This document shows positions 1 to 2,159 of a stretch of 4,104 nt of DNA, one piece after another. The notes beneath the pieces are model-generated. The model made no database searches, had not been told where the DNA came from, and was given only the letters and a program-made list of their open reading frames with translations. The translations under genes and the position numbers were made by a program. The DNA is from a virus (lineage: Duplodnaviria > Heunggongvirae > Uroviricota > Caudoviricetes). Every line of letters begins with the position of its first letter. Position 1 is the first letter of the stretch. Where the stretch lies: the IMG/VR virus record IMGVR_UViG_2671180620_000027. One strand, given 5' to 3'.

Positions 1-246
1 CCGTGCCCTGGCGTTGCTGGTGGGCACGTTATGCGGCGCGGTCTGTACCAGAGAAAAATCACGCCGGAACTGATAAACAGGCATCACGCAATCATATTCG
101 TAACCTTCACGGCGGTAGGTTACGCGCCGTTCTTCCACGCCCTTAATCATTACCGTGCCGCCGTACTGGTCGCGGTAAATATCACCGCGCGTAAATTTAG
201 GGTGAGTGTTGCCACTGGCAGTTAAGCCAGAATATTTAAGTTTCAT
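1..246 (-). CDS. Hypothetical small protein, 3' end beyond window (82 codons visible, no stop reached); possibly DUF4222-like prophage protein
   Basis: Own reverse-complement translation from ATG at 244-246: MKLKYSGLTASGNTHPKFTRGDIYRDQYGGTVMIKGVEERRVTYRREGYEYDCVMPVYQFRRDFSLVQTAPHNVPTSNARAR, open to position 1. Starts 5 nt after the stop of the upstream ORF (252-254), same strand. Not in the ORF track because no stop lies in the window. Family resemblance is from memory only. Confidence 0.5.
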   Translation of the reverse strand, partial: MKLKYSGLTASGNTHPKFTRGDIYRDQYGGTVMIKGVEERRVTYRREGYEYDCVMPVYQFRRDFSLVQTAPHNVPTSNARAR

Positions 247-251
247 TATTT

Positions 252-485
252 TTATTCTCCGGTGTGCTGTTCGTTATATCTGTCGTGCAATGTCTCTATT
301 TCCTGCAACTCATTTATTACAGACTCAAGAAGCGTTATTAATGATGTAATAATCCGCGTTTTTTTTGCATTACGTTCATTATCGCCAAAGGATTCAAGGC
401 ACATCCGCAATATTTCCATCATGTTTTCACTGTGAGAAAGTGCAAGTGATGCGCGGTCTATTGTTTCAAGATAAATATCACGCAT
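252..485 (-). CDS. Hypothetical protein, 77 aa, AT-rich codon usage
   Basis: Track ORF MRDIYLETIDRASLALSHSENMMEILRMCLESFGDNERNAKKTRIITSLITLLESVINELQEIETLHDRYNEQHTGE. ATG at 483-485 overlaps the stop of the upstream ORF in an ATGCGTGA junction (translational coupling). GAGGA lies about 8 nt upstream of the ATG. No family recognised. Confidence 0.5.
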   Translation of the reverse strand: MRDIYLETIDRASLALSHSENMMEILRMCLESFGDNERNAKKTRIITSLITLLESVINELQEIETLHDRYNEQHTGE

Positions 486-711
486 GGCTTACATCCTCAG
501 GAAATTTTCTTCTGTAACGCGCCTCTGCCACATATTCCGCATAATCGGCGGCGATATTCAGTACATCAAGTCCCGTTGATTTATATTCTCTCGTGGAAAG
601 TAAGAAAAAAGCCGCTCTAATAAGTTCTGGCATTGACGAAAGCGCATCAGCCGCATCATCAGGAACGCCGGAAAATTCTTGTTTCAGGGAATTAAAACGA
701 TCATCACGCAT
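478..711 (-). CDS. Hypothetical acidic protein, 77 aa
   Basis: Track ORF MRDDRFNSLKQEFSGVPDDAADALSSMPELIRAAFFLLSTREYKSTGLDVLNIAADYAEYVAEARYRRKFPEDVSHA. ATG at 709-711 sits 2 nt downstream (minus sense) of a G9 run that may act as a G-rich ribosome-binding site. Its stop overlaps the next ATG. No family recognised. Confidence 0.5.
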   Translation of the reverse strand: MRDDRFNSLKQEFSGVPDDAADALSSMPELIRAAFFLLSTREYKSTGLDVLNIAADYAEYVAEARYRRKFPEDVSHA

Positions 712-926
712 AACCCCCCCCCATTTTCACAATCAGCAACAAGAATATTTTTAGCGTCATTCAGCGACCGCGTTGCGATGTATCGGATACATTCCAGGGC
801 GAACTGTGTCCGGTCTTTCTGTTCTTCTCCCTGCGCAAGCTCTGCAGTGCATTCAATATCGATAAGCGCGTGCATCAGCGTAGTGAGCGCGGCGGCTGCT
901 GCGTCCGGTGTGGTTTTATTGCACAT
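684..926 (-). CDS. Hypothetical protein, 80 aa; C-terminus depends on G9 tract length
   Basis: Internal start of the 94-aa track ORF: ATG at 924-926 preceded by AGGAGG (plus-strand CCTCCT at 933-938) with a 6-nt spacer. Sequence MCNKTTPDAAAAALTTLMHALIDIECTAELAQGEEQKDRTQFALECIRYIATRSLNDAKNILVADCENGGGLCVMIVLIP. The ATG overlaps the stop of the upstream ORF (TAA at 916-918) in ATGTGCAATAA. The 3' end overlaps the next ORF by 28 nt. Confidence 0.5.
   Translation of the reverse strand: MCNKTTPDAAAAALTTLMHALIDIECTAELAQGEEQKDRTQFALECIRYIATRSLNDAKNILVADCENGGGLCVMIVLIP
714..722. repeat. Homopolymeric tract C9 (G9 on the coding minus strand) at a gene junction
   Basis: Direct count: positions 714-722 are nine consecutive C. 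On the minus strand the run is read as GGG GGG GGG (codons 722-714) in the 684-926 ORF and lies immediately upstream of the ATG of the 478-711 ORF. Confidence 0.9.
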
Positions 927-1476
927 GGCACACCTCCTGACGAATACGGGCGGCGAATACAGCAACACAACCGGACGGGCAACGGCTACGCGCTTCGCGT
1001 TCCGTCCAGGCGGTTACGTGGATGATTTGATGTTCTGACGCGCCAAAGATGATAAAGCGCCAGAGAAAGGCGGTTTGAGAATGTACAAGGGTAGGGATAG
1101 TAGCCATGTTGGCAGCCTCCTCAGTGTGGTTAAGATAACCGCCACCGGAAACGCCAATTTCGCTGGTGGCGGACTGTACAGGGTTGGCGTAACCGGACAC
1201 TGAAGAAACCGGCGCGGATTGCTCCGCCCCCGTACAGCCCACCATTGATAAGGTGTGACTATGCGGCACAAAAAAACACGCGGGGCGCGTGTTATGCGCT
1301 TCAGTTTTGCCCAGGACGCCAATCCCGGCACCCGTTTTATGAGGTGCGCGGGAATCATAGCTATTTTCGACACTGGCGATCAACTGGTTTTTTTCTCCGA
1401 TATTCAGGGCCAGAAAACGCCACACAAAGGCCGTTTGTGTGTGTACAAGGTGTGGTATATGATTTACGGCAACCAT
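916..1476 (-). CDS. Hypothetical protein with internal paralogous repeat (186 aa from ATG 1474-1476; alternative 63-aa product from internal ATG 1105-1107)
   Basis: This is the C-terminal part of the 409-aa track ORF. ATG at 1474-1476 is preceded by AGGAG with a 5-nt spacer. An in-frame internal ATG at 1105-1107 is preceded by a strong AGGAGG (1116-1121) with an 8-nt spacer. The motif IPHLVHTQTAFVWRF (1414-1458) recurs as IPTLVHSQTAFLWRF (1054-1098), with synonymous third-position differences in this frame. The true start is uncertain. Confidence 0.45.
   Translation of the reverse strand: MVAVNHIPHLVHTQTAFVWRFLALNIGEKNQLIASVENSYDSRAPHKTGAGIGVLGKTEAHNTRPACFFVPHSHTLSMVGCTGAEQSAPVSSVSGYANPVQSATSEIGVSGGGYLNHTEEAANMATIPTLVHSQTAFLWRFIIFGASEHQIIHVTAWTEREARSRCPSGCVAVFAARIRQEVCHVQ
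1054..1098 (-). repeat. Paralogous repeat copy B (encodes IPTLVHSQTAFLWRF)
   Basis: Codon-by-codon comparison with 1414-1458 on the minus strand: cca/cct, cac/cat, acg/acc and cgt/cgc are synonymous; T/S, V/L and H/T are conservative replacements. Confidence 0.7.
1414..1458 (-). repeat. Paralogous repeat copy A (encodes IPHLVHTQTAFVWRF)
   Basis: See copy B. Similarity continues into the flanking codons and the upstream SD-like GGAG. Confidence 0.7.
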
Positions 1477-1538
1477 AACGGCTCCTAGTTTACGTTGTTG
1501 GTTAGACGCCCCGTATGTGTTCCCAGCACTGCGGGGCG

Positions 1539-1566
1539 TTGATTTTTGTGTAATGGCAAGTACAAT
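1539..1566 (+). promoter_or_regulatory. Candidate rightward promoter for the RHH gene (TTGATT, 16-nt spacer, TACAAT)
   Basis: Hexamers read at 1539-1544 and 1561-1566. The predicted start at about 1573 falls inside operator copy 1. The -35 is weak, so this is tentative. Confidence 0.3.
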
Positions 1567-1610
1567 GGTAATTACCATGTAGGTATAGTAATGAAGGGTA
1601 ATTACCATGT
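1567..1610. promoter_or_regulatory. Two direct copies of GGTAATTACCATGT, each containing the perfect palindrome GGTAATTACC; candidate operator for the RHH protein
   Basis: Copies at 1567-1580 and 1597-1610, 30 bp centre to centre (about three helical turns). Copy 1 extends to the 14-bp palindrome ATGGTAATTACCAT (1565-1578). Copy 2 contains the ATG of the RHH gene (1607-1609). Confidence 0.5.
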
Positions 1611-1613
1611 CAA
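1585..1613 (-). promoter_or_regulatory. Candidate leftward sigma70 promoter for the small-ORF operon (TTGACA, 17-nt spacer, TACTAT)
   Basis: Minus-strand -35 TTGACA is the reverse complement of 1608-1613; -10 TACTAT is the reverse complement of 1585-1590; the spacer is exactly 17 nt. The predicted start near 1578 lies in operator copy 1, and copy 2 covers the spacer and -35. Confidence 0.45.
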
Positions 1614-1780
1614 CACCATTAGAAAAACGTTCGCCTCCATACCAAATGCGATTACCGGAAGACTTCAGAGCGCAGCTAGAAGAAGCAGCTAAGGCCGATG
1701 GCGACACATCTTTAGCCACTTGGATTAAACGCGTTCTCCGCAAAGAATTACAGCAACGCGGCATAGAACCCAAAGGATAA
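1607..1780 (+). CDS. Arc/MetJ/CopG-like ribbon-helix-helix DNA-binding protein, 57 aa; putative repressor of the divergent operon
   Basis: Own translation: MSTPLEKRSPPYQMRLPEDFRAQLEEAAKADGDTSLATWIKRVLRKELQQRGIEPKG, stop TAA at 1778-1780. It shows the beta-strand (YQMRLP), helix, G-x-T/S turn, helix pattern typical of RHH repressors. AAGGG at 1594-1598 is a possible ribosome-binding site. The opposite strand here is Cys/Ser/Arg-rich antisense-looking sequence. Confidence 0.7.
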   Translation: MSTPLEKRSPPYQMRLPEDFRAQLEEAAKADGDTSLATWIKRVLRKELQQRGIEPKG

Positions 1781-1837
1781 AAACTATCAGCGCCGTGGTG
1801 TGAGGTATTACGGCGCATTGCTATGCAGGACAACACA

Positions 1838-2011
1838 ATGACCGATAAAGAATTGACCAAAACATTATCACCGGCACGGAAAAGACGGCGCAGAAAGATA
1901 GAGCATGAATCAGAAAGATTCGCACCATGTGCTTTTGCCCTTGAGCAATTCCTTAAAGAGTACAGGGAAAAGCGCTCATTGCAGGTATGGCAACGAACTG
2001 AACCAGACTGA
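1838..2011 (+). CDS. Possible small basic protein, 57 aa, downstream of the RHH gene
   Basis: Internal start of the 62-aa track ORF: MTDKELTKTLSPARKRRRRKIEHESERFAPCAFALEQFLKEYREKRSLQVWQRTEPD. AGGA lies about 8 nt upstream of the ATG at 1838. It is on the same strand as the RHH gene and upstream of the plus-strand terminator. No family recognised. Confidence 0.3.
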   Translation: MTDKELTKTLSPARKRRRRKIEHESERFAPCAFALEQFLKEYREKRSLQVWQRTEPD

Positions 2012-2106
2012 TTGCATTGCCCACCAGCCTGATAGCGGCTATCATCCCCGTGCTTATGTTTGGGATCACATACACATAAGGCGCAGCGGGTTAATTGTTC
2101 AGAAAG

Positions 2107-2133
2107 GCGGCTCCATATCGGGGCCGCTTTTTT
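2107..2133 (+). terminator. Rho-independent terminator (plus strand) ending the RHH transcription unit, convergent with alpA
   Basis: Stem GCGGCTCC (2107-2114) pairs with GGGGCCGC (2120-2127), 8 bp with one G-U wobble; loop ATATC; followed by TTTTTT (2128-2133). Confidence 0.6.
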
Positions 2134-2159
2134 CGTGTTTGTCATATCTGTGATACCCG

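What the first reader, a model, noticed from the sequence alone, without database searches (positions are those of the whole stretch)
684..726. G9 homopolymer at a gene junction where a one-base length change restores the junction form used by the neighbouring genes
With nine G the 80-aa ORF runs 28 nt into the next gene and ends ...GGGLCVMIVLIP. With eight G it would stop at TGA 704-706, giving an ATGCGTGA start/stop overlap identical in form to the next junction at 478-485. With ten G the two ORFs fuse in frame into one protein of about 160 aa. The tract also lies in the ribosome-binding position of the downstream gene. This could be slipped-strand phase variation, a recent frameshift, or a homopolymer sequencing error.
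Basis: seen in the sequence. Interest (0 to 1): 0.6.

Follow-up and report, generated by a model that had tools for sequence, protein, structure and literature searches.

The report
Length-variable poly-G tract joining two satellite genes
A run of nine G's sits exactly between two small genes of an E. coli phage-satellite island; in nature its length varies from 5 to 13, so the genes are separate, overlapping or fused, and this window carries one common, real variant rather than an error or a dead gene.

Summary
On the coding (-) strand, G9 (window 714-722) lies between ORF A (926..684) and ORF B (711..478). G8 gives the ATGCGTGA stop/start overlap. G7 or G10 fuse A and B.

The window matches E. 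coli O103 RM8385 at 100% identity. It is a PICI-type phage satellite next to tRNA-Pro. A and B lie downstream of a C4/IsrK immunity-RNA region and an Icd-like ORF.

All predicted alleles exist. For this exact A sequence:
- G8 and G9 are each on at least 1000 contigs.
- G7 and G10 fusions are on 21 and 10 contigs.
- G5, G6 and G11-G13 are rarer.

Across 136 isolate-derived and metagenome loci, the lengths form one smooth peak (G7 21, G8 46, G9 24, G10 5) with no triplet periodicity. They show no phylogenetic signal: 50 parsimony changes against 51.7 when tips are shuffled.

A and B are autonomous modules. They are often separate genes elsewhere, B keeps its own ATG, and the G run itself pairs like a Shine-Dalgarno sequence.

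Best reading: this is a replication-slippage hot spot at a frame-tolerant junction. G9 is a genuine, common allele, which PGAP mislabels "frameshifted". Fast ON/OFF phase variation is not shown, because large clones are monomorphic. The function of A and B is unknown.

The parts
714..722 (-). G9 homopolymer (C9 on + strand). It is a slippage-prone tract that encodes the Gly-Gly-Gly end of module A and serves as the Shine-Dalgarno-like element of B.
   Evidence: 0.03 expected by chance. Anti-SD duplex is -11.1 kcal/mol. Lengths of 5-13 occur in relatives.
684..926 (-). ORF A in its G9 form (80 aa): helical module A (residues 1-71) plus a 9-aa out-of-frame tail, LCVMIVLIP.
   Evidence: This exact 80-aa protein is on at least 1000 contigs. 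It matches phrog_5146 and the first half of phrog_2512.
478..711 (-). ORF B (77 aa): helical module B with its own ATG.
   Evidence: It matches phrog_24341 and positions 78-154 of phrog_2512. It is on at least 1000 contigs as a stand-alone 77-aa protein. It is a stand-alone gene behind a different upstream gene in CI5 and L199. About 15 stand-alone B clusters start exactly at this Met.
704..711 (-). ATGCGTGA octamer: the B start codon plus the TGA that would end A if the tract were G8 or G11.
   Evidence: The G8 junction is realised in CFT073.
684..711 (-). 28-nt A/B overlap, specific to the G9/G12 frame.
   Evidence: The same overlap is annotated in O26:H11 11368.
682..737 (-). Nucleotide-invariant junction island: 15 nt upstream of the tract through the first 30 nt of B. 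It is a probable mosaic or recombination boundary and the translation-initiation region of B.
   Evidence: In 57 distinct relatives, diversity is about 0 here, including at third codon positions, against 0.3-0.58 elsewhere in A and B. A and B sequence types occur in different combinations.
478..485 (-). Second ATGCGTGA octamer: the B stop / C start overlap.
252..485 (-). ORF C (77 aa, phrog_2196), the next gene in the operon.
   Evidence: It contains an A8 run (359-366) that is nearly invariant in relatives and serves as an internal control.
916..1107 (-). Icd-like ORF (63 aa). Its stop overlaps the A start by 11 nt (ATGTGCAATAA).
   Evidence: NCBIfam NF033153, 57.1 bits. PGAP annotation. Sequence.
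1162..1347 (-). C4 antisense RNA (1162-1249) and IsrK (1271-1347): the immunity/leader RNA region upstream of the operon that contains A and B.
   Evidence: Rfam RF01695 scores 77.6 bits (gathering 45). RF01394 scores 66 bits (gathering 50).
1..246 (-). DUF4222 gene (N-terminal part within the window). It is the last small gene before the RepA helicase.
   Evidence: Pfam PF13973, 86.3 bits. Annotation.

Best explanation
The G9 run is a genuine, naturally length-polymorphic homopolymer at the boundary between two autonomous small helical modules, A and B. They lie in the early operon of an E. coli PICI-type phage satellite.

Replication slippage changes the run, mostly by +/-1. This moves the junction among three states:
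1. G7/G10: one fused A-B protein (144-155 aa).
2. G8/G11: two genes with the operon's usual 8-nt ATGCGTGA stop/start overlap. This is the commonest state and the one in EcCICFT073.
3. G9/G12 (this window): two genes with a 28-nt overlap and a 9-aa out-of-frame tail on A.

B keeps its own ATG, and the G run itself acts as its Shine-Dalgarno sequence, so both modules can be made in every frame. Selection therefore does not hold the tract to one frame, and its length drifts around G8.

Shown:
- the tract and its coding consequences;
- the existence and abundance of all the alleles;
- the lack of phylogenetic signal;
- the autonomy of A and B in relatives.

Inferred:
- slippage as the mutational mechanism;
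- independent translation of B;
- near-neutrality of the three frames.

The biochemical role of A and B is unknown. From their position, downstream of a C4-type immunity RNA and translationally linked to an Icd-like ORF, they are probably early helper- or host-directed satellite proteins.
For: **Tract and consequences.**

**Allele census for the exact A sequence.**
- G5: 11 contigs
- G6: 5
- G7 fusion: 21
- G8: >=1000
- G9: >=1000
- G10 fusion: 10
- G11: 47
- G12: 8
- G13: 1
- B alone: >=1000

**Independent DNA scans.**
- IMG/VR isolate prophage regions: G7 23, G8 34, G9 18, G10 4, G11 2.
- Metagenome assemblies: G7 10, G8 27, G9 12, G10 1.
- After de-duplication, 110 haplotype/tract combinations remain: fused frame 26, G8 frame 55, G9 frame 29. 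The distribution is one smooth peak with no 3-nt periodicity.

**Rate and phylogeny.**
- Parsimony gives 50 changes on 110 tips, against 51.7 +/- 2.3 for shuffled tips.
- 25 of 66 pairs with identical 455-nt flanks differ in tract length.
- With 1200-nt flanks, 1 of 16 identical pairs and 5 of 11 pairs with 1-2 substitutions differ.

**Internal control.** An A8 run inside gene C is A8 in 11 of 12 loci, while the G tract in those same loci ranges from 7 to 12.

**Autonomy of the modules.**
- B is a stand-alone gene behind an unrelated 121/127-aa gene, with the same ATGCGTGA junction.
- In L199, A and B are separated by a whole gene.
- Among 50%-identity representatives, about 25 clusters are A-only and about 15 are B-only starting exactly at the Met. 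Only 2 cover the full fusion, and a few partial or odd-length hits are ambiguous.

**Fused forms also exist.**
- Fused forms are common in other lineages, including O157:H7.
- A full-length match to phrog_2512 has E = 3e-66.

**SD-like pairing.** -11.1 kcal/mol.

**Structure.** The AF2 model, of low confidence, shows two helical hairpins joined by a linker (residues 68-93) with pLDDT <50.

**G8 in a functional element.** EcCICFT073 is experimentally mobilisable (PMC6092414) and carries the split G8 allele.
Against: - Neutrality of the three frames is inferred only from allele frequencies. Heavily sequenced clones (O157, O26) inflate some counts.
- Recombination at the invariant junction can mimic tract changes relative to the flanks.
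- The run stays uninterrupted in about 90% of A-B junctions. Synonymous diversity is zero around it. This could mean the tract itself is under selection, which favours the contingency-locus rival.
- Divergent relatives with a stable G4 fusion (..CEYGVMRDD..) show that the fused protein is a working form.
- No expression data exist for B in the G9 state, where A-translating ribosomes run 28 nt past the B start.
- Some within-clone differences in complete genomes may be long-read homopolymer errors. The O111:H8 pair also differs by one other indel.
Confidence: 0.68

Rival explanations
1. Adaptive contingency locus. The poly-G tract is maintained by selection as a stochastic three-state switch (fused / coupled / overlapped). 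The switch changes A-B stoichiometry or activity, and thereby satellite-helper interaction such as induction, interference or helper range. The satellite population would be hedging its bets.
For: - The tract is pure in about 90% of junctions although GGN codons could break it synonymously.
- It persists across A variants down to about 57% identity.
- About 50 inferred independent length changes.
- Zero synonymous diversity around the tract.
- G/C runs this long are otherwise absent from the window.
Against: - Large clones are monomorphic: about 36 O26 genomes all give the same subject length, and the sampled O157:H7 genomes are all G7.
- Loci with identical 1.2-kb flanks rarely differ in tract length, 1 of 16 pairs. 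The rate looks like ordinary homopolymer instability, not 1e-5 to 1e-2 switching.
- No frame abolishes either module, so there is no obvious OFF state.
- Interrupted, locked alleles exist, mostly in the G8 frame and some in the G9/G12 frame.
- No phenotype is known.
Confidence: 0.13
2. Inactivating frameshift, which is PGAP's reading. The true gene is the fused A-B protein of about 149 aa. The G9 allele would be a pseudogene on its way to decay.
For: - PGAP labels 478..926 'frameshifted' in RM8385, JNEC-KY176 and O111:H8 7-16 37A.
- The G10 construct matches phrog_2512 end to end.
- Fused homologues of 144-155 aa are on hundreds of contigs.
- Stable G4 fusions occur in divergent relatives.
Against: - Split alleles far outnumber fused ones for this exact sequence: >=1000 and >=1000 contigs against 21 and 10.
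- The functional island EcCICFT073 is split (PMC6092414).
- A-only and B-only clusters predominate among distant relatives.
- B keeps an invariant ATG and SD-like run.
- A and B show no further decay, meaning no extra stops, in G8 and G9 alleles.
Confidence: 0.09
3. Programmed recoding. RNA-polymerase slippage or ribosomal frameshifting on the G run makes some fused A-B protein from G8 or G9 templates. This would resemble IS3 orfAB or dnaX, so the DNA length matters little.
For: - The architecture resembles orfA / orfB / orfAB: two overlapping ORFs, a slippery run, and an internal SD-like element.
- All three DNA frames are tolerated.
Against: - Known recoding sites conserve one length and one frame, and this tract does not.
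- The held papers document E. coli RNA-polymerase slippage for A/T runs (PMC6260861, PMC1088944), not G runs.
- No stimulatory structure was sought or found.
- There is no transcript or protein evidence.
Confidence: 0.06
4. Homopolymer sequencing or assembly error in this particular assembly. The true length here would be G8 or G10.
For: - Homopolymers are error-prone in long-read assemblies.
- The O111:H8 pair differs only by two indels over 6 kb, which suggests such errors do occur in this collection.
Against: - An identical G9 is present in a second O103 genome.
- G9 is also found in O26:H11 11368 and in about 36 other O26 genomes.
- It is on at least 1000 contigs and in 12 of 53 metagenome contigs.
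- The control A8 run is stable in the same loci.
Confidence: 0.04

Closest known systems
Homopolymeric-tract (poly-G/C) contingency loci of Neisseria, Campylobacter, Bordetella and Helicobacter, including genes that are split or fused by tract length (e.g. PMC5084427, PMC1891110; the split/fused examples are from my own knowledge)
   Same: An intragenic G/C run of 7 or more. Slipped-strand length changes shift the reading frame. Alleles of different length occur among close relatives. Tract length decides whether two ORFs are read as one.
   Different: The host is mismatch-repair-proficient E. coli. The inferred rate is modest, since clones are monomorphic. No frame switches a module off, because B has its own start. 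The length distribution shows no frame preference. No phenotype is known.
EcCICFT073, the prototype Gram-negative phage-inducible chromosomal island (PMC6092414)
   Same: Same gene order: int, alpA-type HTH, YlcI/YnfO-like, Icd-like, small ORFs, A, B, C, DUF4222, then a replication gene. It has an identical A module, a closely related B and the same tract.
   Different: - EcCICFT073 has G8 (73-aa A, ATGCGTGA overlap), a primase instead of the RepA helicase, and a different attachment site.
- The window's island sits at tRNA-Pro/yejM. To the left, PGAP annotates only a small terminase subunit, one short hypothetical ORF and a capsid gene before the yejO pseudogene.
- The paper does not mention the tract or these ORFs.
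Programmed frameshift or transcriptional-slippage sites (IS3 orfAB, dnaX; PMC5009743, PMC1088944)
   Same: Two overlapping ORFs separated by a slippery homopolymer, which can yield the upstream product, the downstream product and a fusion.
   Different: Here the three outcomes are encoded by different DNA alleles, and the tract length is not conserved. There is no evidence of recoding at the RNA or ribosome level.
P1 c4-icd-ant and P4 CI-RNA immunity regions (Rfam C4 RF01695, IsrK RF01394)
   Same: A C4-type antisense RNA is followed by an Icd-like ORF. That ORF overlaps the start of the next gene, which is the position occupied by ant in P1. Here A occupies that position.
   Different: A and B have no detectable similarity to Ant, to P4 epsilon or to any Pfam, NCBIfam, PADLOC or PDB entry. 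The parallel is positional only.

Membership tests
Simple-sequence-repeat phase-variable (contingency) locus | Homopolymer of about 7 or more inside or just upstream of a coding region | tested here: met
   G9 at 714-722, inside ORF A and 2 nt upstream of the B ATG.
Simple-sequence-repeat phase-variable (contingency) locus | Tract length differs among closely related strains or elements | tested here: met
   G5-G13 occur for the identical A sequence. 25 of 66 pairs with identical 455-nt flanks differ. RM8385 has G9 and JNEC-KY176 has G12, with identical 1.2-kb flanks.
Simple-sequence-repeat phase-variable (contingency) locus | Length change alters expression through a frame shift | tested here: inconclusive
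   The frame changes and gives fused, split or tailed products. However, both modules remain encodable in every frame, and expression was not measured.
Simple-sequence-repeat phase-variable (contingency) locus | High-frequency reversible switching within a clonal population (about 1e-5 or more per generation) | not testable with these tools
   The indirect evidence points against it. The O26 and O157:H7 clones are monomorphic, and only 1 of 16 pairs with identical 1.2-kb flanks differ.
Gram-negative PICI (EcCICFT073 type) | Integrase, an AlpA-type regulator and a replication module in the conserved order, at a tRNA or other specific attachment site | tested here: met
   - Integrase domains are present.
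- The HTH protein gives a weak AlpA hit, 17.9 bits against a cutoff of 21.
- A RepA helicase lies downstream and tRNA-Pro is adjacent.
- The gene order is colinear with EcCICFT073.
Gram-negative PICI (EcCICFT073 type) | Induction and packaging by a helper phage | not testable with these tools
   This requires experiment. It has been shown only for EcCICFT073 (PMC6092414).
Programmed recoding site (frameshift or transcriptional slippage) | Slippery sequence of conserved length and frame across homologues | tested here: not met
   Lengths from 5 to 13 occur and all three frames are common.
phrog_2512 (fused A-B protein, 154 positions) | A single polypeptide covering both halves of the profile | tested here: not met
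   In the window allele, A matches positions 1-77 and B matches 78-154 as separate ORFs. Only the in-silico G10 or G7 product matches 1-154, with E = 3e-66.
C4 antisense-RNA immunity region (Rfam RF01695 / RF01394), as context | Covariance-model score above the gathering threshold | tested here: met
   C4 scores 77.6 bits (gathering 45). isrK scores 66 bits (gathering 50).

The most novel reading that the evidence does not exclude
The poly-G run is a bona fide contingency locus carried by an E. coli phage satellite. It would be a selected, reversible three-state switch that toggles two early satellite proteins between fused, translationally coupled and overlapped/tailed forms. That would diversify how individual cells' satellites respond to or interfere with helper phages. 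It would be a rare case of repeat-based phase variation in E. coli, and the first in a PICI.
Probability: 0.12. Interest if true: 0.7.

Novelty: new member of a known kind. Interest (0 to 1): 0.4.

Why it matters
- **Annotation.** The same locus is annotated in three inconsistent ways in RefSeq: as a 'frameshifted' pseudogene, as two genes, or as one gene. The only difference is a 1-nt change in tract length. Pipelines and variant callers should treat it as a polymorphic junction, not as damage.
- **Biology.** It is a clean natural example of reversible gene fusion and fission driven by a homopolymer. A retained start codon and a tract that doubles as a ribosome-binding site make the junction tolerant of all three frames.
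- **Experimental access.** The locus sits in the early operon of PICI satellites, including the model element EcCICFT073. Whether A-B fusion state affects satellite-helper biology can therefore be tested directly with locked alleles.

Tried and rejected
- **Family and structure searches for A and B.** Pfam, NCBIfam, PADLOC and PDB-sequence searches found nothing beyond PHROGs of unknown function.
- **Structure prediction.** AlphaFold2 on a shallow 25-sequence alignment gave pLDDT 58. That is too low for a meaningful fold search, so none was run.
- **Paralogy.** A, B and C are not detectably paralogous.
- **Phage collection.** The INPHARED phage collection has no match to the A-B region.
- **Genome contigs.** One genome per species gave only one hit, Shigella flexneri with G8. 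The tract family appears confined to Escherichia and Shigella at this stringency.
- **Exact counts in complete genomes.** I planned allele-specific 77-nt BLAST queries. I dropped this because the >=99% identity band also counts partial 100% matches. An evenly spaced 60-row sample was used instead.
- **Alignment attempt.** A first 1400-nt MAFFT run timed out and was repeated with shorter flanks.
- **Within-clone pairs.** O111:H8 (G9 vs G10) and O145 (G6 vs G7) were examined as evidence of recent switching. They cannot be separated from long-read indel errors, so I do not rely on them.
- **Literature.** Searches found no paper describing this tract.

Full report
**1. Observation**

- The + strand carries C9 at 714-722, which is G9 on the coding (-) strand. 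It is the only G/C run of 6 or more in the 4104-nt window. Shuffles give 0.03 such runs per window.
- ORF A (ATG 926) reads ...ADCENGGG through the tract. It continues out of frame as LCVMIVLIP to the TGA at 684-686, overlapping ORF B (ATG 711, 77 aa) by 28 nt.
G8 or G11 end A at ...GGGYA, with the TGA inside ATGCGTGA (704-711). G7 or G10 give one 148/149-aa A-B protein.
- The octamer ATGCGTGA also forms the B/C junction at 478-485. That is 2 copies against 0.17 expected.
- The tract pairs with the 16S 3' end at -11.1 kcal/mol for any length of 7 or more. This is comparable to the AGGAGG sites of the two upstream genes.

**2. Context**

- Bases 1-1600 are 100% identical to E. coli O103 RM8385 and to 2013C-4225.
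- The island lies between tRNA-Pro/yejM and a yejO pseudogene. Its gene order is: integrase, small ORF, AlpA-type HTH protein, two + strand small genes (one YlcI/YnfO-like), then a leftward operon.
- The leftward operon contains Icd-like/ash-like remnants, the Icd-like ORF, A, B, C, DUF4222 and a RepA helicase. These are followed by three small ORFs, a small terminase subunit, another small ORF and a capsid gene.
- Rfam finds a C4 antisense RNA (1162-1249, 77.6 bits) and IsrK (1271-1347, 66 bits) upstream of the Icd-like ORF. The Icd-like stop overlaps the A start by 11 nt.
- The same gene order, with an identical A module, occurs in CFT073 next to phoQ. That island carries the capsid and head-decoration genes that PMC6092414 describes for EcCICFT073 (c1499/c1500). 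It is therefore the prototype, experimentally mobilisable Gram-negative PICI.
- In EcCICFT073 the tract is G8. A is 73 aa and overlaps B by the 8-nt ATGCGTGA.

**3. Are the predicted alleles real?**

They are. Exact-sequence look-ups for the window's A sequence found every allele tested:

| Tract | Product | Contigs |
|---|---|---|
| G5 | split | 11 |
| G6 | split | 5 |
| G7 | fused, 148 aa | 21 |
| G10 | fused, 149 aa | 10 |
| G11 | split | 47 |
| G12 | split | 8 |
| G13 | fused, 150 aa | 1 |
| – | B alone, 77 aa | >=1000 |

- In other A/B sequence backgrounds, fused proteins of 144-155 aa are on hundreds of contigs each. One example is the 154-aa protein of O157:H7, which has G7.
- The G10 construct matches phrog_2512 over its whole length, with E = 3e-66. 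A alone and B alone match its two halves. They also match separate PHROGs, phrog_5146 and phrog_24341.

**4. Length distribution and dynamics**

Pattern scans that leave the tract free gave these counts for pure tracts:

| Source | G7 | G8 | G9 | G10 | G11 |
|---|---|---|---|---|---|
| 90 IMG/VR prophage regions | 23 | 34 | 18 | 4 | 2 |
| 53 metagenome contigs | 10 | 27 | 12 | 1 | – |

- Both sets also contain a few interrupted tracts.
- An evenly spaced sample of 889 complete E. coli genomes gave, among 44 rows with the tract: G6 1, G7 18, G8 12, G9 12, G10 1.
- After de-duplication there are 110 haplotype/tract combinations. Pure tracts: G7 21, G8 46, G9 24, G10 5, G11 2, G12 1. Interrupted tracts account for the other 11.
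- By frame, that is fused 26, G8 frame 55 and G9 frame 29. The distribution is one smooth peak with no 3-nt periodicity.
- On an NJ tree of the 455-nt A+B flanks, tract length needs 50 parsimony changes, against 51.7 +/- 2.3 for shuffled tips. There is essentially no phylogenetic signal (an earlier subset gave 35 against 40.9).
- 25 of 66 pairs with identical 455-nt flanks differ in tract length. With 1200-nt flanks, 1 of 16 identical pairs and 5 of 11 pairs with 1-2 substitutions differ.
- My inference is that the tract changes about as often as one or two substitutions accumulate in about 1 kb. That is roughly 1000 times the per-site substitution rate. It is a clear hot spot, but not contingency-locus speed.
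- Consistent with this, about 36 O26 genomes all give the same subject length. All sampled O157:H7 genomes are G7.
- As an internal control, an A8 run inside gene C is A8 in 11 of 12 loci, while the G tract in the same loci ranges from 7 to 12. The variation is therefore specific to this tract and is not generic homopolymer noise.

**5. Why all frames are tolerated**

- A and B are autonomous modules. In strain CI5 and in IMG/VR locus L199, B is preceded by an unrelated 121/127-aa gene that ends ...CAGGGGGGTAAACATGCGTGA. The B start is the same.
- In L199, an A-type gene of 74 aa without a tract is separated from B by that whole gene.
- A profile search of 1.84 billion cluster representatives found only 54 relatives. 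About 25 are A-only and about 15 are B-only starting exactly at the Met of B. Only two cover the full fusion, and a few partial or odd-length hits are ambiguous.
- The Met is invariant in fused proteins.
- The AF2 model has low confidence (pLDDT 58). It shows two helical hairpins joined by a linker (residues 68-93) with pLDDT below 50, which begins at the Gly run.
- Every tract length therefore leaves both modules encodable, and B has its own SD-like sequence and ATG.
- Divergent relatives with a short, stable G4 junction (..ADCEYGVMRDD..) show that the fusion is also a working form.

**6. The junction is unusually conserved**

- In 57 distinct relatives, selected by peptide rather than DNA pattern, nucleotide diversity is about 0 from 15 nt upstream of the tract through the first 30 nt of B. 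This includes third codon positions. Elsewhere in A and B it is 0.3-0.58.
- A-types and B-types occur in different combinations. The junction therefore looks like a mosaic or recombination boundary, and also like a translation-initiation region under constraint.
- About 90% of A-B junctions keep an uninterrupted run of 7 or more. The interrupted alleles (GGGGGTGG, GGGGTGGG, GGGGTTGG, GGGGGGGGTGG, GGGGAGGGGGGG, GGGGGGGGGGAG) are mostly in the G8 frame, and the two 12-nt forms are in the G9/G12 frame.
- This persistence is the main argument for the rival view that the tract itself is selected.

**7. Verdict**

- The window's G9 is a real, common allele of a slippage-prone tract at a frame-tolerant gene junction in a PICI-type satellite.
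- PGAP's 'frameshifted' label reflects comparison with fused relatives rather than gene decay.
- Fast ON/OFF phase variation, sequencing error and pseudogenisation are not supported. Recoding on the run cannot be excluded, but no evidence points to it. The E. coli RNA-polymerase slippage documented in the papers I held concerns A/T runs (PMC6260861, PMC1088944).
- The function of A and B remains unknown. By position, after a C4-type immunity RNA and coupled to an Icd-like ORF, they are probably early satellite proteins acting on helper or host. This is an inference only.
- I file the finding as a new member of a known kind, homopolymer-driven frame polymorphism. It has moderate interest, mainly for annotation practice and as a testable lead in PICI biology.

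Noticed in passing
window 1162-1347 (-), and direct repeat 1054-1099 / 1414-1459: A C4 antisense RNA (RF01695, 77.6 bits) and IsrK (RF01394, 66 bits) lie in the operon leader. They are flanked by a 46-nt direct repeat (76% identity) that coincides with the starts of two Icd-like ORF modules. This looks like a P1/P4-type antisense-RNA immunity region with two target sites.
   Followed up: partly
window 916-2145 (-): One reading frame is free of stop codons for 1230 nt (409 aa). It runs across the C4/IsrK RNAs and the + strand genes. PGAP splits it into partial 'ash family' and 'Icd-like' pseudogenes. No explanation was sought.
   Followed up: no
window 1552-1613: Three copies of an operator-like repeat containing the palindrome GGTAATTACC (AATGGTAATTACCATGT) lie in the divergent region between the YlcI/YnfO-like gene (1607-1780, +) and the leftward operon. 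They overlap the best sigma-70-like promoter match, TTGACA-17-TACTAT at 1613-1585 (-).
   Followed up: no
window 682-737: Nucleotide diversity among 57 distinct relatives is essentially zero around the A/B junction, including at synonymous sites, although A and B themselves are mosaic and diverged. This is a probable recombination boundary.
   Followed up: partly
window 359-366 (A8 on the coding strand, inside ORF C): This second long homopolymer lies inside a gene. It is A8 in 11 of 12 related loci and A7 in one. This contrasts with the variable G tract in the same loci.
   Followed up: yes
L001 6478-6926, L002 3487-3923, L096 2299-2763, L230/L231 2799-3245: RefSeq/PGAP annotates the same A-B locus in three ways: as a 'frameshifted' pseudogene (G9 or G12), as two overlapping genes (G9 in O26, G6 in O145), or as one gene (G7 or G10). 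The annotation of identical G9 junctions is inconsistent.
   Followed up: yes
L095 2525-2532, L199 1510-1517; window 478-485 and 704-711: ATGCGTGAT recurs as the start of both B and C, so both proteins begin MRD. It also forms the junction when B follows an unrelated 121/127-aa gene. That gene ends in its own G6 run (CAGGGGGGTAAACATG).
   Followed up: partly
L001 1-3500 (left of the window in RM8385): To the left, PGAP annotates only a small terminase subunit, one short hypothetical ORF and a major capsid gene before the yejO pseudogene. The island may be a truncated capsid-encoding PICI.
   Followed up: no
L230 vs L231 (O111:H8 strains 8234 and 7-16 37A), position about 3423: Apart from the tract (G10 vs G9), these 6-kb regions differ only by one further single-base indel in a non-homopolymer context (..TTTGGTGGGCG..). 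There are no substitutions. This hints at assembly indel errors in one of the genomes.
   Followed up: partly
P0003 / P0118, L199 715-945: Some relatives encode 220-221-aa proteins in which a further upstream module of about 72 aa (MSQEITLQQAAERAH...) is fused in frame to A-B. In L199 that module is a separate 76-aa ORF. Module fusion and fission therefore recur at other junctions of this operon.
   Followed up: no
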